Virus record (IMG/VR): IMGVR_UViG_3300037245_002163
Location: 1 to 64,000 of that record
Direction: 5' to 3' (one strand)
Origin: a virus
Length of the DNA stretch: 64,000 bases
The position numbers were made by a program, and so were the translations under genes. Under the pieces are notes generated by a model. It was not told where the DNA came from. It searched no databases and saw only the letters and a program-made list of their open reading frames with translations. Below, one piece after another: positions 5,209-49,087 of the stretch. Each line of letters opens with the position of its first letter. The stretch's first letter is position 1.

Positions 5209-5558
5209 CCTGGCCTCTATGGCTCATCAAAGCCGGGCGGTGGATCAGCAAGAACACGCAAGCCGCGCTCGCCGCGCTTGTGCTCGTCTTCGGCGCGGGG
5301 CTCGCGTACACGTATCACAAACGACGCCTTGGTAGCGTGAAGGATCTCTTGGCGGTCGAGCAAGCCCAAAAAGAGATCGTGGCCCTGCAAACGGAGCGCA
5401 AGATGCTCGCGCAAATGGGCACCACGCTACAGGCCGACCTGGACGTGATCGACCTACGCATCGATGAACGCAAGCGGACCATCGTGGGCTTGCATGAGGG
5501 GGCCGCAGGGCTCGATGATAACCAAGTGGCCGATGCGTTCGCTCGGCTCGGATATTGA
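5205..5558 (+). CDS. Inner-membrane anchored coiled-coil protein (i-spanin-like)
   Basis: N-terminal TM helix followed by coiled coil; position in the lysis cassette. Confidence 0.5.
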   Translation: MTWPLWLIKAGRWISKNTQAALAALVLVFGAGLAYTYHKRRLGSVKDLLAVEQAQKEIVALQTERKMLAQMGTTLQADLDVIDLRIDERKRTIVGLHEGAAGLDDNQVADAFARLGY

Positions 5559-5567
5559 GGGGGAACC

Positions 5568-5663
5568 ATGAGCAAGCTCGACAAAGTAAACACTAAGAAG
5601 GTCGCCGTACTCGCCGCTATCGGCGTCGCCGTGATCGTCGTTCTGTATCTCGTCTTCGCGTGA
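5568..5663 (+). CDS. 31-aa single-TM peptide MSKLDKVNTKKVAVLAAIGVAVIVVLYLVFA (below ORF-track cut-off)
   Basis: SD GAGGGGG upstream; stop overlaps next start (GTGA); fills the gap exactly. Confidence 0.75.
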   Translation: MSKLDKVNTKKVAVLAAIGVAVIVVLYLVFA

Positions 5664-6121
5664 AGTCAGCGATCCTGATCGCGATATGGCTCATGGCTTC
5701 GCCGGCCGCAGCGGCGGAGCCCGTGCAGCCTATCGAGCTTTGCGCGCCCGACGTGCGCGTGCGCCGGGTTCAAATGACCCACCAAGGCGAGCCGGGGATC
5801 TGGTTCGATGCCCGTGTGGCCAAGTGCATGCTGGTCCAGCTCCAGACCATCGATGCGCTCCGGGCTCAGGCCATGGACTACGAAGTGCGTGCCGGCATGC
5901 ACGGCCAACTCACGCTTTTGCTGGAGCGCCAAGTCGACCTAGCCGCCCTGGAGTCGGAAAAGGCCGTAGGCGCTCTCCAGAGGGCCGTGAAGGGGCAGCG
6001 GGAAGCCGAGGAAGCCTTGAACAAGCCAGGGCGCTCACGGGCCTTGTGGTTCGCCCTAGGCGTATTCTCAGGCGTGCTCGTGATCGGCGTGAGCGCCTAC
6101 GCGATCAACGCAACCCGCTGA
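5660..6121 (+). CDS. Exported coiled-coil protein with C-terminal TM anchor (spanin-like)
   Basis: SPase I-type signal (…SPAAAA/E), coiled coil, C-terminal LWFALGVFSGVLVIGVSAYAI. Confidence 0.5.
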   Translation: MKSAILIAIWLMASPAAAAEPVQPIELCAPDVRVRRVQMTHQGEPGIWFDARVAKCMLVQLQTIDALRAQAMDYEVRAGMHGQLTLLLERQVDLAALESEKAVGALQRAVKGQREAEEALNKPGRSRALWFALGVFSGVLVIGVSAYAINATR

Positions 6122-6512
6122 TCAGAAGCCTAGGCGTTGCGGGTCGGGTTACACACGTGGCTCGCCAATTCGGGCTTGGGAACCCCCCATGATCGACTTT
6201 CGCTTTGCTTTTTGCAGGGTCGAGCCCGCAAACGACGGGAGCCTCACGCCATTATCCCCGGAGCCCTAACCGACTGACGACTTACGGCTTCGCACGGCAA
6301 GCGCAGTCTTTCCGGGCGCTTGACGGCTAGCCGGCGGATAAGCTCGTCACAGTTGCTACCCCTCACAGACGCTACTCAGGGGGATACGTGACACGGGCGT
6401 ACGGGAGCTAAGTGCTTGAAACGCCGCCGCAATAGGTGCCATACGCGACGGTTCATTGCACCACTACTTTCGAGGCTCACTCATGGGCCTCAAAGCGTAC
6501 ACGCCCGCGGAG
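6122..6512 (-). ncRNA. Putative ~390-nt highly structured non-coding RNA
   Basis: Gap between convergent genes contains many nested helices; G-U pairs favour the minus strand (see findings). Confidence 0.6.
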
Positions 6513-6833
6513 TCACCCGCGCTCGATACGGTCGGCGAGTTCACGGAGCATTCGGGTCACGATGGCCCGTGTCGATAGCCCGCTCTTGCGGATGGTGCGC
6601 GGCGGTTGCTTCGGCTTGGGCACGCCATTGCTCAGCGAGGGATGGGGCTCGCGCCGCCGGATAACGCACTCTTCGGAATGGTAGCCATCGAGCCCATCGC
6701 ACTCCGGGCAGATCCGGCGCACGGCACGGACGGCAAGGGGGTCTTCGGGGAGCGCGTCTTGAAGCCGCGCCATCGCTTCATCGTCGGAGCCCGGTACGAA
6801 GCCAAGCAGGGAATGGTATCGGGGCTTGCTCAT
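6513..6833 (-). CDS. Hypothetical protein (CxxC...HxxxC zinc motif)
   Basis: 106-aa ORF directly downstream of 6842-7429. Confidence 0.65.
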   Translation of the reverse strand: MSKPRYHSLLGFVPGSDDEAMARLQDALPEDPLAVRAVRRICPECDGLDGYHSEECVIRRREPHPSLSNGVPKPKQPPRTIRKSGLSTRAIVTRMLRELADRIERG

Positions 6834-6841
6834 GGGGGCGC

Positions 6842-7429
6842 TTAGGACGCTTCACGGCTCAGGCGGAGCCGCACGGCCAACTGGTTATCGCTCAGGTTCT
6901 CAGTCGAATCCATCGCGCCTTCGAATGCCTTGGCCATGCGCGCGAGCTTTTGCCGCTTTTGCTTTAGGAGGGTCGTGCTCCGCTTGAGTTGCCGCTCCAA
7001 CTCTTTGACCCGCTTTTCGTTCTCTACCACGCTCTTGCGGAGTGCGTCGTACTTCTTATCGAGCGTGGGCTTGCTGCGCTTGCGCTTCGGCTTGTGCTCC
7101 ATGGGTTCATAGCCGACGTTGGGCACATCCGCATAGACCCGATGCAGACTCGCGCGAGTCACGTCGGGCTTGGCGCACTTGACCATCCCGTACGCGACGG
7201 CGCCGGCCGCTTGAACCATCGATGCGTCGTTCTGAGGCAGTTGGATGGTGATCGTGAGACCCGATGCCCAGATCCGAACCGCACGGGCTCGCGTCCTGGT
7301 AATGAACCGGACGGTGTAGCCGGCAGTGGAAAGAAGCGCGTGCTCTTGGGCGCACTTGTGGCCCAGCGTGATCGCGCGCCGCAGTACCCGACCTTGGTAC
7401 TTCGTTTCGTTGACGAGTTTATTGCGCAT
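6842..7429 (-). CDS. Hypothetical basic coiled-coil protein with C-terminal LSD..L..RL motif
   Basis: 195 aa; TATACT lies 6 nt before the ATG (leaderless). Confidence 0.75.
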   Translation of the reverse strand: MRNKLVNETKYQGRVLRRAITLGHKCAQEHALLSTAGYTVRFITRTRARAVRIWASGLTITIQLPQNDASMVQAAGAVAYGMVKCAKPDVTRASLHRVYADVPNVGYEPMEHKPKRKRSKPTLDKKYDALRKSVVENEKRVKELERQLKRSTTLLKQKRQKLARMAKAFEGAMDSTENLSDNQLAVRLRLSREAS

Positions 7430-7463
7430 GCACCAAGTATAGCATGCGCCGTATACGATGCAA
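7430..7463 (-). promoter_or_regulatory. Sigma70-type promoter with CGTATACG palindrome in the spacer
   Basis: TTGCAT-16-TATACT-6-ATG; CGTATACG at 7450-7457. Confidence 0.65.
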
Positions 7464-7501
7464 ATGGACCGCAGCTCGCTTCGCCCGGAAAACGCGGGGG
7501 A

Positions 7502-7588
7502 TTAGGTCAATCGGAGCACAAGCAAGATGAGGATCGCGATGATGAGAATGCTGATCGCGGCTGACGCGAGCTGGTTCAAATGCTTCAT
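7502..7588 (-). CDS. 28-aa hydrophobic peptide MKHLNQLASAAISILIIAILILLVLRLT
   Basis: Extended -10 TGT-TACGCT, 6 nt, then ATG (leaderless); single TM helix. Confidence 0.6.
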   Translation of the reverse strand: MKHLNQLASAAISILIIAILILLVLRLT

Positions 7589-7599
7589 GCCCGGAGCGT

Positions 7600-7635
7600 A
7601 ACAAAGAGAAGCCCCCGGATCACTCCAGGGGCTTC
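7600..7635 (-). terminator. Intrinsic terminator
   Basis: GAAGCCCC/GGGGCTTC stem followed by TCTTTGTT on the minus strand. Confidence 0.7.
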
Positions 7636-8321
7636 CCCGTCCTACAACTTTGTCCCGGCTCACACGGCGCAACTTACATGGCTTCACTGAAGGGAGAAGA
7701 CCGCGCCGCGCGAGTTGCCCGGAGCCTAGCACGCACCCCTCCCGGTCGCCGGTCCTGGCCCGGCGTCGCTCTACATCGTCGGGGGCTGCGCCCCGTGAGT
7801 CGGGGGCTTCGCTTCGCTTGCCCCCTCCGTGTCTCGACAAACTTTGCCATCGGATCGGAACGCTTAGTGAAAGCGGCGATTCGATCCTCTTGTCCCACGC
7901 ACAAGTGCGCACACACGCGAGGCACCCTCGCTGCAAAAATCCAACCCCATCCAACTATGACCCAGCTTGCGTCGTTACAACTTGGGGGGATACACAGCCG
8001 CCTACGACCCACCCCCGCTAATGCTCTGCGATGATCCGCTAGGAGTGCGCGATTATCCCTTGGTCTGTCATTGGCTCTAGGTGTTCAACCGATCGCGCTA
8101 TCACGGCACGTGTCATAGACCCGCGCCCCTCTTGCACCCCGACTCCGTTCACAGGCATTACGGCCGCTCTTCGGCTGCCCCGGATCGAGTTCACTAGCGA
8201 TGCTTCCGTGTCCGTTCGGATGACCACGAGGGCTTGTAGATCGATCCGTGCTTGACAGGCAAGCGCGAAGTTTGGTAGCGCCGGATCTCCCCCAACCCCC
8301 CACAAAGGATGTGCGAACATC

Positions 8322-9353
8322 ATGACTTCCAAACTTGTCCAGGTTCGGCTGGATCTCATCGATCCTAACCCTTACCGGCATCTAAAACGATACCCTTTCG
8401 TCCAGTCGAAACTCGATTCGTTGCAACGCTCGATCGAGGACGTGGGCTTTTGGGAAGGCGTGATCGCCCGCAAGGTCGGTCGCCGCCACCAACTCGCTTT
8501 CGGGCACCACCGATTCGAAGCTGCCCGTCGCAGCAAACTCAAAAGCATCCCCCTCGTGGTTCGTGATCTGAGCGATGAGCGCATGATCGAAATGATGGGC
8601 CGTGAAAATCTCGAAGACTACAACGCTGACTTTCCGTGCATGCTCGAATCGTGGCAAGCGGCGCGCGAGTTCCGAGCGCACGAGTTCGACGACCTTGATA
8701 ACATAATGATTGCGCGCACTTTGGGCTGGACCACTGTCAGTGGGAAGGGGCGTAACAAAGCGGAGCGCATGAATAACACGGCCAAGGCGTGCTCCGCGGC
8801 CGACTCGCTGATCGAAGGCGGCTACCTGAAACGCAAAGAGCTGGACGGCCTTGCGGTTCGATCGGCGCTCGACATTTGTACGCGCGCGCAGACTCGTGTG
8901 AAGCAGCTCGATGCGTTGGCGGCCAAGGGGCACCGTACGCGGAGCGACGTGGAGCGCGCTAAGAAGCGCGTCGGCAAGGCCGCGGAGACCACGGCCAAAG
9001 AAGTGCGCAAGGGTCACGTGACCCACACCGAAGTGGCGGGACGCGTGGATTACAACGTCGCCGGGGTTCGGCGCACCAAGCCGAGCCCGCTCTTCGCGAA
9101 GTTCGGCGATTCAACGGCGACGGCCATCGGGCGCATGCTCGATGAAGACGCCATCGCCAAACGGCTTGGCCAGATCATCGCGGTCAAAAAAGAGATCACG
9201 TTGGCCGACGATCGTCGCGCGGTGCGCAATATCGATCGCGAGTTGGAAAAGCTCGAAAAGAGAATCGCTAGGTGGCGCAAGCGGCTTCAACCCGCCGCTG
9301 CGAAATCGCTCAATGGTAACGGTGCGCGCGCGAGTGTGCGGGGGGTGGCCTAA
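8322..9353 (+). CDS. ParB N-terminal (ParB/Srx) domain protein
   Basis: IDPNPYR...LQRSIEDVG...LAFGHHRFEAARR...IPLVVRDLSDE...ENL. Confidence 0.85.
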   Translation: MTSKLVQVRLDLIDPNPYRHLKRYPFVQSKLDSLQRSIEDVGFWEGVIARKVGRRHQLAFGHHRFEAARRSKLKSIPLVVRDLSDERMIEMMGRENLEDYNADFPCMLESWQAAREFRAHEFDDLDNIMIARTLGWTTVSGKGRNKAERMNNTAKACSAADSLIEGGYLKRKELDGLAVRSALDICTRAQTRVKQLDALAAKGHRTRSDVERAKKRVGKAAETTAKEVRKGHVTHTEVAGRVDYNVAGVRRTKPSPLFAKFGDSTATAIGRMLDEDAIAKRLGQIIAVKKEITLADDRRAVRNIDRELEKLEKRIARWRKRLQPAAAKSLNGNGARASVRGVA

Positions 9354-9868
9354 TGGAAAACTCGAAATACCTACGGCGCAAGAAAGCGGAAGCGTGCCCC
9401 ATTCACCAAGCGGTCTACCAACTTGCGAGCGAGGATATCGTAGACCGCGGTGTTTTCGAGAAGATTGATCTCTTGAAAAGACTCCACTTCGAAGCCGTCG
9501 CGGGCAGCATTCGCTGGGACTACATTTCGGGGTGGATCGAAGCCGAATTGAAGTGTGAGCTGGTTCCGTTGGTAAGCCGCTACTTCCGCCGGCACCGGCA
9601 AGCGGACGTGCAGGATAACCCGGCGGAGTACATCGCTTCGGGCCACGGCAAGAAAACGATGGGCTACGGCGCGGTCGGGTTCAACGAATTGCTCAACTCG
9701 ATCTACATTCACCGGGCCAAGCAACGTGCCGCGGTTACCAACGGCGTGGGCAAGGCGTTCCGTGCGTACATGAGCGAAGTGGAGAAGCGCGGCCTAGAGC
9801 TGCCCACGGACCTGAGCTTGCTGCCATCGGGCGACCCGCCAGAGGCCGGCGAGCAGCACGCTCAGTAG
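9353..9868 (+). CDS. Hypothetical protein coupled to the ParB-like gene
   Basis: TAATG stop/start overlap; 171 aa. Confidence 0.7.
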   Translation: MENSKYLRRKKAEACPIHQAVYQLASEDIVDRGVFEKIDLLKRLHFEAVAGSIRWDYISGWIEAELKCELVPLVSRYFRRHRQADVQDNPAEYIASGHGKKTMGYGAVGFNELLNSIYIHRAKQRAAVTNGVGKAFRAYMSEVEKRGLELPTDLSLLPSGDPPEAGEQHAQ

Positions 9869-10036
9869 AACGCCCGGCGCCCCCTGGTAGGCCAGGGAGC
9901 GTAAGGTCCGCGCGCTCGATCATCGAACCCGCTCCCGGTGGTCTGGCAAGACCGCCGTGCTCTTGGTTCAGAAGATGTGGGTGGGAGCGAGCTGCAACAC
10001 CATTGCTGCCCCGATGATCGATGACCGGGGTTCTAC
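9865..10036. ncRNA. Putative ~170-nt multibranched structured RNA
   Basis: Closing stem GTAGAAC(G)CCCGG/CCGGGGTTCTAC, inner TCGATCATCG/CGATGATCGA, CGCTCCC/GGGAGCG, plus side hairpins. Confidence 0.5.
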
Positions 10037-14968: not shown

Positions 14969-15020
14969 TTGCATCGTCTACGGTCGGTCGGCTACTCTTA
15001 GTAGTGAAGGGACCAAGACC
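14969..15020 (+). promoter_or_regulatory. Early promoter/leader cassette, copy 1
   Basis: TTGCAT-18-TACTCT; CGTCTACG in spacer; leader TGAAGGGACCAAGACC-ATG. Confidence 0.75.
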
Positions 15021-15902
15021 ATGACCGAAACAAAGACCACCCGCATCACCATCAAGACCGCCGACGACGCCCGCGCGTACCTTACGACGCAGAGCTTCAA
15101 CTTCAGCCGCGTCCAGGTCGACGACAATGGCAACGAGTACGAAGAGCATCGCGAGACCTGCAAGCGTTGCGGCGGCGCGGGCTACTACCCCACGCAGTTT
15201 CACGGCGCGTGTTTCGAGTGCGGCGGCAGCCCCCCGAACCGCATCGTGCGCACGTCGCTCATCGCCATCGCGAAGCGGGCTCGCAAGGTCGAGCTTGCCG
15301 CCAACAAGCGGGCTCGCAAGGCCGCGGTCGAAATGGCCGAGCGCAACGAGCGCACCGCCCGCGAAGCCACTGAGTTCGATGCTGCCTTCCCGACCATGCG
15401 CGCCGAGCTTGCCGACTACCTCCCCTACTACTGCGAAGCCGAAGGCACCAACCTCGCGAACAAGGAACACCGCATCTTGAACGACATGGCGACGAAGCTC
15501 GCGCGCTACGGTTCAATCTCCGAGAAGGCCGTCACGTTCGCCCGCAAGATGCTCGCCGACGAAGCCGCCCCGAAGGCCGTGCTTACCGAAGGCCGCTACG
15601 AGATGGCCGGCACCATCATCAAAGCGGACATTCACGAGAACCAGTACGGCTCCACTTGGAAGATGACCGTCAAGCTCCCCGATGGCTCGTGCGTTTGGGG
15701 CACCATCCCGGCCGATATCATCAACGTGGCTGTTGAGGCCCGCGTCGACTACGACCAGTTCATCGGCGACATTCTCAGGGGCGCGACCGTGACCTTCACG
15801 GCGACCGTCACCCGCTCCGACAAGTCGACCGACTTCGGCTTTTTCAAGCGCCCCGCCAAGGGCGCGACCGTCACCATCGTGACCGCACGCACGGAGGCGT
15901 GA
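15021..15902 (+). CDS. Hypothetical early protein (CxxCxGxG zinc finger, OB-fold-like C-terminus)
   Basis: CKRCGGAG...CFECGG; strong C-ending codon bias; conserved leader. Confidence 0.75.
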   Translation: MTETKTTRITIKTADDARAYLTTQSFNFSRVQVDDNGNEYEEHRETCKRCGGAGYYPTQFHGACFECGGSPPNRIVRTSLIAIAKRARKVELAANKRARKAAVEMAERNERTAREATEFDAAFPTMRAELADYLPYYCEAEGTNLANKEHRILNDMATKLARYGSISEKAVTFARKMLADEAAPKAVLTEGRYEMAGTIIKADIHENQYGSTWKMTVKLPDGSCVWGTIPADIINVAVEARVDYDQFIGDILRGATVTFTATVTRSDKSTDFGFFKRPAKGATVTIVTARTEA

Positions 15903-15904
15903 GC

Positions 15905-15956
15905 TTGACGGCCGTACACGATTCATCGTATAGAGAGATTGAAGGGAACGAAGACC
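15905..15956 (+). promoter_or_regulatory. Early promoter/leader cassette, copy 2
   Basis: TTGACG-18-TATAGA; CGTACACG in spacer; leader TGAAGGGAACGAAGACC-ATG. Confidence 0.8.
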
Positions 15957-16910
15957 ATGGCGAACCAGAGAAAACGAAAGAAGGGGGCTCCGCTGTTCGA
16001 CCACGCGGGCGTGCGGCCTCGCAAGAATGTGAAGATCGGCGATACGGGCGTTGTCATGCCCGGCCTCGCTGAGCGGCACTTCCTGAGCCCCAGCCCCCAG
16101 CCCTACCGCTTTCCCCAGCGCGAGGTTACCGACTTGGCTGCGGGCCTCACGTTGGGCACGAACGTCATGCTCACTGGACCCACGGGGTGCGGCAAGACTT
16201 CGCTCGTCGCGCGGATCGCTTCCGAGCTGGGTCGGCCGTTCGTTCGGTTCAACTGCGATGGTGAGACGCGGGTTTCGAATCTGCGCGGCATGATGCGCCC
16301 GACCAGCGATGGCGGCGTGCTGAGCTTGAAGTTCAATCCCGGCGACTTGGCCGTTGCGATGCGCGAGGGCTATTGGGTTCTCTTCGACGAGATCGACGCG
16401 GCGCTCCCGAGCGTGCTCTTCGTTTTGCAGCCGGTGCTCGAAGAGGGTAACCGCTCGCTGCACATCCCTGAGACCGGCGAGACCGTTATCCCGCATGAAG
16501 ACTTCGCGGTGTTCGCTACGGGCAACACGATCGGCTACCGCGCCATGGCGCGAGCACGCCACGCCGGCACGCATTCGTTGAACGCGGCTTTCCTTGACCG
16601 CTTCGGGATCGTGATCGACTGCGGCTACCCGGAGCGCAAAGAAGAGATCAAGCGGATTCAGTGTCACGTGTCGGATCTCAAAATCGACTTCATTGACTCC
16701 GCTTGCCGCGTGGCGAACAAGCTCCGCCAAGACAAAAACTTCGTGAGCGATTTTTCGACGCGCCGGCTGATTCAGTGGTGCAAGGTCATGGAGCTAATGG
16801 GCGACGGGATTCGCGCTGCGGAGCTGACGATTCTGCGCAAGCTCGAAAGCCCGACCGATGCAGAGGTCGCCAAGCAAGCCATCAACCGCCAGTTTGGGTA
16901 CGACAAATGA
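15957..16910 (+). CDS. MoxR/CbbQ/CobS-like AAA+ ATPase
   Basis: GPTGCGKT, LFDEID, FATGNT, NAAFLDRF, FSTRRL. Confidence 0.9.
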   Translation: MANQRKRKKGAPLFDHAGVRPRKNVKIGDTGVVMPGLAERHFLSPSPQPYRFPQREVTDLAAGLTLGTNVMLTGPTGCGKTSLVARIASELGRPFVRFNCDGETRVSNLRGMMRPTSDGGVLSLKFNPGDLAVAMREGYWVLFDEIDAALPSVLFVLQPVLEEGNRSLHIPETGETVIPHEDFAVFATGNTIGYRAMARARHAGTHSLNAAFLDRFGIVIDCGYPERKEEIKRIQCHVSDLKIDFIDSACRVANKLRQDKNFVSDFSTRRLIQWCKVMELMGDGIRAAELTILRKLESPTDAEVAKQAINRQFGYDK

Positions 16911-44577: not shown

Positions 44578-44684
44578 AAAAAATCCTTGGCGTCGCCCGT
44601 GCGGTGAATCTGATCCCGTGTGAGGGGGTCACGCTGAACCCGACCCTGTTTTTGCGCTGCGGGCGATCACCAAGGAAGGGGAAT
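44578..44684 (-). ncRNA. Putative ~107-nt sRNA
   Basis: TTGACA(44714-19)-17-TAGGTT(44691-96) promoter, no ORF, closing stems TCCTTGG/CCAAGGA and TCGCCCG/CGGGCGA, ends in T6. Confidence 0.7.
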
Positions 44685-44809
44685 GACCGTAACCTAAGCG
44701 CCGCCCAAGGTAGTGTCAATATCCCTTAGCAGCTCGACACAAGCGTGGCGATGATGAAGCCGGCGGCCATGGTCAAGCCGAATGCGGTTTCGAGGTCCAC
44801 ACTTGAAGG

Positions 44810-48577: not shown

Positions 48578-49035
48578 GACGCGGCTTTGGTTTCAGCGTC
48601 GCGTAGTAGCGCCTGGAGCACTTCGATCGGGCCGGTCGCGTCTTGTAGCGTTTGCGCACGGCCTTGGCTGTAGCCGCGATCGTAGCGATCGGTCTCTTCG
48701 CGTGCGTCGCGTTCGGAAGCGATGCGCTCCGTGGCCATGCCGTCCAGAACGTCGGCAAGGGTCTCGCGCATGCGCACAAGGTCGTCGACTGCGATCGTGG
48801 CGGTCGTCACGGGGATCATCCATCCGTAGCCGACTTGCTCTTGGTAGTCGTCTTCCCCGATGGCGTTGCACATGCCGGAGCCGTAGCGCCCGCACTGGTA
48901 GTCAGCGCGATCCGCTTCGATGCGCACCTTGCGCACGGCCTTGCCGTTTTTGTCGCGGGCCACGATGCCCAAGTGGGTCGTGTAGTTGTAGTCGTAATCG
49001 ATGTGCGCGGTGGTGTAGCGGATAATGGTTTCCAT
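48574..49035 (-). CDS. Hypothetical early protein
   Basis: ATG follows the conserved leader. Confidence 0.75.
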   Translation of the reverse strand: METIIRYTTAHIDYDYNYTTHLGIVARDKNGKAVRKVRIEADRADYQCGRYGSGMCNAIGEDDYQEQVGYGWMIPVTTATIAVDDLVRMRETLADVLDGMATERIASERDAREETDRYDRGYSQGRAQTLQDATGPIEVLQALLRDAETKAAS

Positions 49036-49087
49036 GGTCTTCGTTCCCTTCACCTAGAGTGTACGGCACGCCGTATACGGCCGTCAA
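49036..49087 (-). promoter_or_regulatory. Early promoter/leader cassette, copy 3
   Basis: TTGACG-18-TACACT; CCGTATACGG in spacer; TGAAGGGAACGAAGACC-ATG. Confidence 0.85.

What the first reader, a model, noticed from the sequence alone, without database searches (positions are those of the whole stretch)
7600..7735. Candidate trans-acting antisense RNA against the shared early-gene leader
TGAAGGGAGAAGACC at 7688-7702 is a copy of the early leader that is not followed by ATG and lies in non-coding DNA just upstream of a minus-strand terminator (7600-7635). A minus-strand RNA would present GGUCUUC-UCCCUUCA inside a GGCUC/GAGCC + GCAACU/AGUUGC stem. It could pair 8+7 bp (2-nt bulge) across the SD-to-start region of the identical leaders and less perfectly with the others, so one sRNA could shut off the regulon. 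Alternative: a decayed plus-strand cassette, since CACACGGCGCA upstream resembles the 7450 spacer.
Basis: inference. Interest (0 to 1): 0.78.

Follow-up and report, generated by a model that had tools for sequence, protein, structure and literature searches.

The report
Anti-leader hairpin in phage non-coding RNA
A 15-base copy of the ribosome-binding leader shared by seven genes of this phage sits, read backwards, in a conserved hairpin at the end of a 650-base non-coding stretch, so its RNA could switch those genes off by pairing; there are no expression data, and a sister phage lacks the copy.

Summary
The sequence observation holds, with corrections. TGAAGGGAGAAGACC (7688-7702, +) is a non-random, 2-nt-shorter copy of a start-codon-anchored leader. 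That leader, GAAGGGA-N4-5-RGACC-ATG, follows seven promoters of this 101-kb phage, and four copies are identical. The copy has no start codon and lies in truly non-coding DNA.

On the minus strand it occupies the apical part of a hairpin. The hairpin stem (7659-7670/7703-7714) shows one compensatory change and two G·U pairs that form only on that strand. A conserved intrinsic terminator (7597-7637) follows. Both elements form the 3' end of a roughly 650-nt conserved, structured, gene-free region, which has the most C-rich plus strand in the genome.

The anti-leader costs about 6 kcal/mol to open. The four identical leaders are its best non-self targets genome-wide.

Against the reading:
- No promoter or transcript is shown.
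- The homologous hairpin in a sister clade, which uses the same leader family, lacks the motif.
- Its conservation in the one close relative is not exceptional.

The "decayed plus-strand cassette" alternative has no support beyond the motif itself.

Verdict: a plausible but unproven c4-like trans antisense element, odds about 0.4. This scan noted a similar idea before on other DNA (e1-5965903).

The parts
7688..7702 (-). Anti-leader. The minus-strand RNA reads GGUCUUCUCCCUUCA, complementary to the shared leader UGAAGGGA(AC)GAAGACC.
   Evidence: Identical in L012. Absent in L002.
7653..7723 (-). Hairpin carrying the anti-leader. Outer stem 7653-7659/7717-7723; main 12-bp stem 7659-7670/7703-7714; apical CUUC-AGU-GAAG mini-stem (7682-7692).
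   Evidence: Fold dG -71 kcal/mol, z -3.2. C7665-G7708 becomes T-A in L012. A7662·C7711 and A7664·C7709 are G·U pairs only on the minus strand. Opening cost is 6.0 kcal/mol for the 15 nt and 1.4-2.3 for UCCCUUCA.
7597..7637 (-). Intrinsic terminator: 12-14-bp GC-rich stem, GUGA loop, U-rich tail.
   Evidence: Conserved in L012 and L002, with compensation and a conserved U·G wobble.
7638..8245 (-). Conserved, structured, gene-free region of which the hairpin is the 3' domain. The 5' end and promoter are not determined; the candidate is TTGCCT-18-TACAAG at 8262-8233.
   Evidence: 89% identity to L012, above the 83% identity over the whole 5265-8732 alignment including the flanking genes, and blocks of about 90% to L002. 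26 pairs with double changes against 1-5 in slid controls. Most negative GC skew in the genome. No Rfam match.
7502..7588 (-). Conserved 28-codon membrane-peptide gene (MKHLNQLASAAISILIIAILILLVLRLT), starting about 10 nt after the terminator.
   Evidence: 9 synonymous against 2-3 non-synonymous codon differences versus L012 and L002.
7429..7464 (-). Promoter TTTGCA-17-TATACT with a CGTATACG palindrome. It drives the leaderless 195-aa gene (6842-7429).
   Evidence: Conserved in L012 and L002.
15005..15023 (+). Predicted target leader (variant GAAGGGACCAAGACC-ATG) of a 293-aa gene.
15940..15959 (+). Predicted target leader (canonical TGAAGGGAACGAAGACC-ATG) of a CobS/MoxR-like AAA ATPase gene.
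49033..49052 (-). Predicted target leader (canonical) of a 153-aa gene.
50594..50613 (-). Predicted target leader (canonical) of a 76-aa gene.
51859..51878 (-). Predicted target leader (variant GAAGGGAAGAGAGACC-ATG) of a 71-aa gene.
53154..53172 (+). Predicted target leader (variant GAAGGGACGAACGACC-ATG) of a 180-aa gene.

Best explanation
The window is the first 64 kb of a 101-kb phage contig. Seven of its genes start behind a promoter-plus-leader unit: TTGAC(A/G)-17-TAnnnT, about 6-9 nt, GAAGGGA, 4-5 nt, (A/G)GACC, ATG. The 20-nt leader is essentially the whole 5'UTR (Shine-Dalgarno sequence plus spacer).

The copy at 7688-7702 is not a gene start. It lies in a roughly 650-nt gene-free, conserved, structured region. 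Inferred: this region is transcribed on the minus strand and ends at the intrinsic terminator 7597-7637, directly before a conserved 28-codon membrane-peptide gene.

In that RNA the penultimate hairpin holds GGUCUUCUCCCUUCA in its weakly paired apical part. The SD-complementary half, UCCCUUCA, sits in or next to the loop.

Most likely mechanism (inferred, not shown): this hairpin acts in trans, either within the long RNA or as a 3'-end fragment of it. It acts like the loop-presented antisense of phage P1 c4 RNA, kissing the SD of the leader mRNAs and extending to 8+7 bp up to the start codon. This would block ribosome binding on the four identical leaders strongly and on the three variants more weakly.

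Shown: the motif, its non-randomness, the hairpin and terminator with covariation, the non-coding status, the low opening energy and the target ranking.

Inferred: transcription, strand, processing, pairing in vivo, and timing.
For: - Motif non-random: 0.01 expected per window.
- The motif is anchored to ATG in all 7 leaders here. In the 7 leaders of the relative G001 it lies at the start codon too (5 directly, 2 with one extra A). Its distance to the -10 varies, so the leader is a translation-level element.
- Hairpin z = -3.2.
- One double compensatory change, one A·C to A-T change, and two G·U pairs that form only on the minus strand.
- Terminator with U-tract, compensation and a conserved U·G wobble in three phages.
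- An unbiased count of single mismatches inside Watson-Crick helices gives G·U 10 against A·C 3 on the minus strand.
- The region is non-coding yet more conserved than the average over the whole alignment, which includes the flanking genes.
- Opening energy is 6.0 kcal/mol against a duplex of -21.9 to -24.4.
- The four identical leaders are the top four non-self hits among about 100,000 genome windows, and all seven are in the top 14.
- The cassette promoters carry their own palindromic operator-like sites (TACGG-N4-CCGTA), so the leader need not be a DNA operator.
- Loop-presented antisense against an RBS is an established phage mechanism (c4, sar; PMC12197685).
Against: - No transcript evidence.
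- No sigma-70-type promoter for a short or long minus-strand RNA. Only a weak conserved TTGCnn-18-TACAAG was seen.
- The homologous hairpin in L002/L003 (G001) reads GAAGCGCACCCCGACC and cannot pair with that phage's leaders, although G001 has seven such leaders.
- Identity of the motif in L012 is not unusual. The unpaired-site divergence is 14.7%, and nine identical runs of 20 nt or more occur in the region.
- Stability of the whole region is not significant (z -1.1).
- A nested-only cofold gives no gain over control start regions. This method cannot model loop-loop pairing.
- The complementarity carries a 2-nt bulge.
- Whether L012's phage has the leaders, or whether G003 has the anti-leader, could not be tested because both are fragments.
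Confidence: 0.4

Rival explanations
1. Relic without regulatory role. A short piece of a leader was captured in, or converged within, a hairpin whose real job is structural, as part of the 650-nt RNA or as a stabilising 3' stem. The complementarity to the leaders has no consequence.
For: The sister clade keeps a hairpin at this place with the same GAAG...8 nt...GACC frame but a degenerate interior (11 of 16 positions), as expected if the motif is dispensable. Motif conservation in L012 is not exceptional. The duplex has a 2-nt bulge.
Against: A 14-15-nt match to the most common leader is expected 0.01 times per window. It lies exactly in the openable apical part, while the opposite side of the same loop changed at 9 of 18 positions. 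No mechanism for capturing only 15 nt is evident.
Confidence: 0.22
2. Cis-acting element of a long leader. The 650-nt RNA is the 5'UTR of the 28-codon peptide gene. The hairpin next to the terminator takes part in attenuation, for example CUUCUCC pairing with GGGGAAG of the terminator's 5' arm. The similarity to the leaders is incidental or serves to sense them.
For: The terminator ends about 10 nt before the conserved peptide gene, which has no promoter of its own. A 6-7-bp alternative pairing between the anti-leader and the terminator's 5' arm can be drawn by inspecting the sequences.
Against: The alternative helix is far weaker than the 12-14-bp terminator. L002 lacks the sequence but keeps the terminator and the peptide gene. 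The peptide gene has no GAAGGGA-type SD to be sequestered.
Confidence: 0.12
3. DNA-level site. The leader motif is bound as DNA by a phage regulator, and 7688-7702 is an extra operator in the control region.
For: The motif lies at about +1 to +17 of seven promoters. A leaderless, possibly regulatory 195-aa gene lies next door.
Against: The motif keeps a fixed distance to the ATG, not to the -10. The spacing of its halves varies by 4-6 nt among the leaders. The promoters already carry palindromic TACGG-N4-CCGTA / CGTATACG sites, better suited to a dimeric repressor. The 7688 copy has no promoter to control.
Confidence: 0.08
4. Decayed or weak plus-strand promoter-leader cassette. TTGTCC-18-TTACAT would drive a plus-strand RNA starting near 7686.
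For: Hexamers of 3-4 out of 6 lie at about the right distance from the motif.
Against: The upstream 50 nt are no more similar to the seven cassette promoters than shuffles are (p=0.31). The -10-like hexamer is not kept in L012 (TTACAT becomes ATAGAT, and the spacer is longer). There is no start codon or conserved ORF downstream. The plus-strand fold shows no signal (z -0.1), and the wobble pairs are mismatches on this strand.
Confidence: 0.06
5. The whole region is a replication or R-loop origin, or a module-junction element, rather than a regulatory RNA. A G-rich minus-strand transcript over the C-rich plus strand would prime or open DNA next to the replication genes.
For: It has the most extreme GC skew of the genome. 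It lies directly upstream of the ParB, helicase and DnaB genes. The right end of the region is a module boundary: the parB module is present here and absent in L002.
Against: There are no iterons or AT-rich stretch. The hairpins with compensatory changes and the terminator point to a folded RNA product. This reading does not explain the leader copy.
Confidence: 0.07

Closest known systems
c4 antisense RNA of phages P1 and P7 (as reviewed in PMC12197685)
   Same: A phage-encoded RNA acting in trans, whose complementary sequences sit in loops and pair around the ribosome-binding site to block translation. It lies in a regulatory region next to a regulator gene and may be cut from a longer transcript.
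   Different: c4 controls one operon (icd/ant) through two short boxes on the same transcript. Here the predicted targets are seven dispersed promoter-proximal genes sharing one leader. There is no sequence or Rfam relationship. Processing and expression are unknown.
sar RNA of P22 and OOP RNA of lambda (PMC12197685)
   Same: Small phage antisense RNAs ending in an intrinsic terminator that repress translation or stability of a phage mRNA.
   Different: Those are cis-encoded, fully complementary and act on a single target. This element is trans-encoded, with 15 nt of bulged complementarity to many targets.
T4 RegB and RegA (PMC3014915)
   Same: In function, a phage shutting off many early mRNAs at once through a feature shared by their translation initiation regions. 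RegB cuts GGAG Shine-Dalgarno sequences; RegA binds start regions.
   Different: Those are proteins. Here the proposed agent is an RNA carrying an anti-SD-like loop.
   Same: The same logic: one identical ribosome-binding block on several early genes and its complement in a non-coding phage RNA.
   Different: It concerns a different phage group, places the complement in a short late-operon leader, and is equally unverified by experiment. It was not re-tested here.
3'-end-derived bacterial sRNAs (own knowledge)
   Same: A regulatory hairpin directly upstream of the terminator of a longer transcript, usable after processing.
   Different: No processing site, Hfq-type signal or host is known here.

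Membership tests
Trans-acting base-pairing antisense RNA (c4-like) | The locus is transcribed into a stable RNA on the strand carrying the complement. | not testable with these tools
The only indirect evidence is the minus-strand terminator and the strand-specific wobble pairs.
Trans-acting base-pairing antisense RNA (c4-like) | The complementary stretch is accessible (loop or single strand). | tested here: met
   Opening energy is 6.0 kcal/mol for the 15 nt and 1.4-2.3 for UCCCUUCA, in both the window and L012.
Trans-acting base-pairing antisense RNA (c4-like) | Specific complementarity to the translation initiation region of its targets, beyond chance. | tested here: met
   The leaders take ranks 2-5, 9, 13 and 14 of about 100,000 windows. 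The motif is expected 0.01 times per window.
Trans-acting base-pairing antisense RNA (c4-like) | The seed is conserved, or co-varies with its targets, across relatives. | tested here: inconclusive
   The seed is identical in L012, whose leaders are unknown because the contig is only 3.6 kb. The leaders are identical in G003, whose locus is missing. The seed is absent in G001/L002, although the leaders are present there.
Trans-acting base-pairing antisense RNA (c4-like) | The target is repressed when the RNA is expressed. | not testable with these tools
   This needs reporter or toeprint assays.
Intrinsic (Rho-independent) terminator | A GC-rich stem-loop followed by a U-run on the transcribed strand. 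| tested here: met
   Stem 7606-7619/7624-7637 plus UCUCUUUGUU on the minus strand, with the U-rich tail kept in L012 and L002. The simple scanner did not list it.
Promoter-leader cassette of this phage (a complete or decayed copy) | TTGAC(A/G)-17-TAnnnT with a TACGG/CCGTA-type spacer upstream of the leader, and ATG directly after (A/G)GACC. | tested here: not met
   There is no ATG. The upstream similarity is at shuffle level. The -10-like hexamer lacks the invariant final T or second A and is not conserved.
Any curated RNA family (Rfam 15) | A covariance-model match. | tested here: not met
   No match with E up to 1 in 6000-10000 on either strand. No tRNA or tmRNA here.

The most novel reading that the evidence does not exclude
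A roughly 650-nt structured phage RNA of a family not yet described carries, in its last hairpin, an anti-Shine-Dalgarno/anti-leader loop. With it the RNA shuts off translation of a whole set of dispersed promoter-proximal genes at once. This would be an RNA counterpart of T4 RegB/RegA, layered on a separate palindromic operator control of the same promoters.
Probability: 0.3. Interest if true: 0.75.

Novelty: new variant of a known kind. Interest (0 to 1): 0.55.

Why it matters
Phage antisense RNAs known so far act on one gene or one operon. A single RNA aimed at a leader shared by many early transcription units would be a regulon-wide, RNA-based temporal switch in a virus.

It would also explain why the whole 5'UTR is kept identical on unrelated genes. 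The leader is 100% identical in the related phage G003, at 86-91% overall identity.

Independently of that reading, the 650-nt conserved, covarying, gene-free region with the most extreme strand composition of the genome is an unclassified structured element worth mapping.

The case can be tested directly with leader::reporter fusions and compensatory mutations, even without the unknown host.

Tried and rejected
**Searches that found nothing**
- Rfam, both strands, E up to 1: nothing.
- tRNA/tmRNA: none near the locus.
- blastn against the phage records: no match.
- Relatives by ParB: only a distant locus with different upstream DNA.
- The 195-aa protein as a single query: nothing in viral contigs.
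- The alignment query in genome contigs: nothing.
- An 18-mer of the conserved block in genome contigs: 11 chance hits with no extended similarity.
- Exact anti-leader in viral contigs: none.
- A further conserved-block pattern: only the two known contigs.

DNA around the nine protein homologues P0001-P0009 could therefore not be fetched.

**Analyses that did not help**
- A probe that included the GC-rich stem gave unspecific duplex hits and was replaced by the core probe.
- RNAcofold ddG was no better than control start regions. I judged it uninformative because it cannot represent loop-loop pairing.
- Whole-region stability z-scores are weak.

**Ideas considered and dropped**
- A second anti-SD-like loop (CACUCCUA, 8040-8047) has no matching sites elsewhere.
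- No other stretch of the region is complementary to several start regions.
- CTACAA(C/G) as a repeated promoter motif: the hits are mostly in coding DNA.
- Plus-strand small ORFs after the motif (TTG CCC GGA GCC TAG) are not conserved.
- A cis antiterminator made from the anti-leader is too weak and is absent in L002.

Full report
**Context.** The window is the first 64 kb of a single 101,300-bp virus record with 61% G+C. Around the finding, two minus-strand genes end at 7429: 6513-6833 and a 195-aa gene at 6842-7429. A ParB_N protein gene (8322-9353), a helicase and a DnaB-like gene follow on the plus strand. No convincing ORF lies between 7604 and 8322.

**The observation.** TGAAGGGAGAAGACC is at 7688-7702 on the plus strand, but nothing else in the window matches it closely. 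Seven genes of the genome begin with GAAGGGA, 4-5 nt, (A/G)GACC, ATG. Each leader lies 6-9 nt behind a TTGAC(A/G)-17-TAnnnT promoter-like site.
- Four leaders are identical (TGAAGGGAACGAAGACCATG): +15941, -49051, -50612 and -85101 in genome coordinates.
- Three are variants: +15006, +53154 and -51877.

The 7688 copy is the canonical leader minus the AC dinucleotide, and GCG follows it. A match of this kind is expected 0.01 times per window, so it is not chance.

The related complete phage G001 (the contig of L003) has seven such units with different spacers. Five have ATG directly after GACC and two have one extra A. The related fragment G003, 86-91% identical, keeps two canonical leaders exactly. 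The motif keeps its distance to the start codon, not to the -10. It is therefore a translation-initiation element, in effect the whole 5'UTR.

The genes behind the leaders are a CobS/MoxR-like ATPase and small proteins of unknown function. That they are "early" genes is plausible but not shown.

**Is it a decayed plus-strand cassette?** The 50 nt upstream of the copy are no more similar to the seven cassette promoters than dinucleotide shuffles are (summed score p=0.31). The -10-like hexamer is poor and changes in the close relative. No start codon or conserved frame follows. I reject this reading as the main explanation.

**Relatives.** Three independent versions of the locus were obtained.
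- L012 is a 3.6-kb metagenome contig, 83% identical over 5265-8732.
- L002 and L003 are two IMG/VR contigs that are identical here. Their helicase is 91% identical in protein, and the locus is 69% identical in DNA.

All three share the same order of elements:
- the leaderless promoter of the 195-aa gene;
- a 28-codon membrane-peptide gene (7588-7502, minus), with 9 synonymous against 2-3 non-synonymous codon differences;
- the terminator;
- a long gene-free region.

L002 lacks the parB module, so the right end of the region (about 8246) is a module boundary.

**The terminator and the hairpin.** On the minus strand, 7637-7606 forms a 12-14-bp GC-rich stem with a GUGA loop, followed by UCUCUUUGUU. 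L012 has a G-C to A-U compensation in this stem. All three versions keep a U·G wobble that would be a C·A mismatch on the plus strand, and all keep a U-rich tail.

Directly upstream, 7723-7653 folds into a hairpin. The 145-nt stretch 7596-7740, which contains this hairpin and the terminator, folds with dG -71 kcal/mol and z -3.2 on the minus strand, against z -2.7 on the plus strand.
- Its main stem pairs 7659-7670 with 7703-7714.
- Against L012, C7665-G7708 becomes T-A, and A7662·C7711 becomes A-T.
- A7662·C7711 and A7664·C7709 are G·U pairs only on the minus strand.

The anti-leader GGUCUUCUCCCUUCA starts at the top of the main stem and runs into the apical region. There, one of its two CUUC repeats pairs with a single GAAG. 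The predicted loop is AGU in the window and UCCCUUCA in L012.

The other side of the apical region changed at 9 of 18 positions between the two phages, and the anti-leader side changed at none. This contrast is only weak evidence. Unpaired sites diverge by just 14.7% overall, and nine identical runs of 20 nt or more exist in the region.

**Pairing potential.**
- Opening all 15 nt costs 6.0 kcal/mol. Opening UCCCUUCA costs 1.4-2.3 kcal/mol, in both phages.
- The duplex with the canonical leader is 8+7 bp with a 2-nt bulge, at -21.9 to -24.4 kcal/mol.
- In a scan of both strands of the genome, the four identical leaders are the best four non-self sites, and all seven are within the best 14. This ranking follows partly by construction.
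- A nested-only cofold gives no advantage over control start regions, but it cannot model a loop-loop complex.

From my own knowledge of 16S 3' ends (...CCUCCUUUCU), GAAGGGA is a fair extended Shine-Dalgarno sequence, and UCCCUUC mimics the ribosomal partner with better complementarity.

**The larger element.** 7597-8245 is non-coding: substitutions fall 26/21/19 by phase, and there are 1-nt and 4-nt indels. Yet it is 89% identical to L012, more than the 83% over the whole alignment including the flanking genes, and it has blocks of about 90% identity to the distant L002.

RNAalifold on the three sequences gives many hairpins with conserved stems and variable loops. 26 pairs changed on both sides, against 1-5 when the partners are slid. 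One example is hairpin 8028-8059, which is rewritten in all three phages.
- The minus strand folds better (-198 against -164 kcal/mol in the alignment), but part of this is composition. Single-sequence z-scores are only -1.1 (minus) and -0.1 (plus).
- An unbiased count of single mismatches inside Watson-Crick-only helices gives G·U 10 against A·C 3 in the minus-strand sense.
- The region has the most negative GC skew of the whole genome.
- No Rfam family matches.
- No sigma-70-type promoter was found on either strand. A weak TTGCnn-18-TACAAG is kept in all three versions at the right end. Alternatively, CUACAA there pairs with UUGUAG next to the hairpin and closes the whole RNA.

I conclude that the finding is the 3' domain of a longer conserved element. 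That element is most probably a minus-strand RNA, and its 5' end is undetermined.

**What weakens the antisense reading.** In L002/L003 the homologous hairpin is shorter and reads GAAGCGCACCCCGACC. This has the same 16-nt frame as a canonical leader, 11 of 16 identical, but it cannot pair with that phage's leaders. Any function is therefore lineage-specific or dispensable. No expression data could be obtained, and DNA for further relatives could not be fetched.

**Related observations.**
- The cassette promoters of both phages carry palindromic TACGG-N4-CCGTA / CGTATACG sites over the spacer and -10. The promoter of the 195-aa gene has CGTATACG. This looks like a separate, DNA-level control, and it makes a DNA-operator role for the leader motif less likely.
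It has a TTGACA-17-TAGGTT promoter, a 5' tail AUUCCCCUUCC, a long closing helix and a U-run, with z -3.5. It is 86% conserved in G001. Its plus-strand text GAAGGGGAATGACC is leader-like. However, apart from the 53154 variant at rank 17, the leaders rank only 55-135 among its predicted targets. It shows that this phage group has at least one promoter-and-terminator-bounded small RNA with an anti-SD-like end, and it is a second candidate for the same job.

**Comparison with known systems.** The closest in mechanism are P1/P7 c4 (loop-presented antisense to an RBS, acting in trans) and P22 sar (PMC12197685). The closest in logic are T4 RegB and RegA, proteins that inactivate many early mRNAs through their shared initiation regions (PMC3014915). 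An RNA doing this for a multi-operon set would be a new variant. This scan has raised the same idea before for lambda-like prophages (e1-5965903, unverified).

**Verdict.**
- Rivals: a relic at about 0.2, a cis role at about 0.1, and smaller odds for a DNA site, a plus-strand cassette or an origin-type element.
- Interest is 0.55.

Noticed in passing
window 7502-7588 (-): A conserved 28-codon hydrophobic peptide gene (MKHLNQLASAAISILIIAILILLVLRLT) starts about 10 nt after the terminator. It has no promoter or clear SD of its own. There are 9 synonymous against 2-3 non-synonymous codon differences to two relatives. It may be expressed by terminator readthrough. The layout recalls a type I toxin or a small membrane effector.
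   Followed up: partly
window 7429-7464 (-); genome 85143-85190: Leaderless promoters TTTGCA-17-TATACT, with ATG 6 nt after the -10, carry the palindrome CGTATACG. A near twin lies at genome 85166 (CGTATACG-N8-TATACT).
   Followed up: partly
window 49062-49075, 50628-50641, 51889-51902; L006 and L008-L011 in G001: The leader-bearing promoters contain a palindrome TACGG-N4-CCGTA overlapping the spacer and -10. It is conserved in the relative G001 and is a likely operator of a dimeric repressor. The neighbouring leaderless 195-aa protein is a candidate for that repressor.
   Followed up: partly
window 44578-44719 (-): A stand-alone small RNA candidate of about 107 nt. It has a TTGACA-17-TAGGTT promoter, a 5' tail AUUCCCCUUCC, a long closing helix and a U6 end, with z -3.5. 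It is 86% conserved in G001. The leader-like text GAAGGGGAATGACC lies on the opposite strand. Apart from the 53154 variant at rank 17, the leaders rank only 55-135 among its predicted targets.
   Followed up: partly
window 8028-8059 (-): A hairpin whose stem is rewritten by compensatory changes in all three phages (GAUAAUCGCG / GGCAGCCGCG / CACACGAGCG, each with its matching partner). Its loop CACUCCUA is anti-SD-like and kept in L012. No matching target sites were found elsewhere in the genome.
   Followed up: yes
window 7550-8550: The most negative GC skew (-0.16) of any 650-nt window in the 101-kb genome, so the plus strand is C-rich. The opposite extreme (+0.29) lies at about 25.7 kb.
   Followed up: partly
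window 8246-9870 against L002 9519-9554: The parB-like gene and the following 171-aa gene are present here and in L012 but absent in L002/L003. The break lies exactly at the end of the conserved non-coding region, which marks a module junction.
   Followed up: partly
window 51043-51203 (-): tRNA-Ile(GAT) and tRNA-Ala(TGC) lie 1 nt apart. This is the pair typical of rRNA operon spacers, here inside a phage with no rRNA nearby.
   Followed up: no
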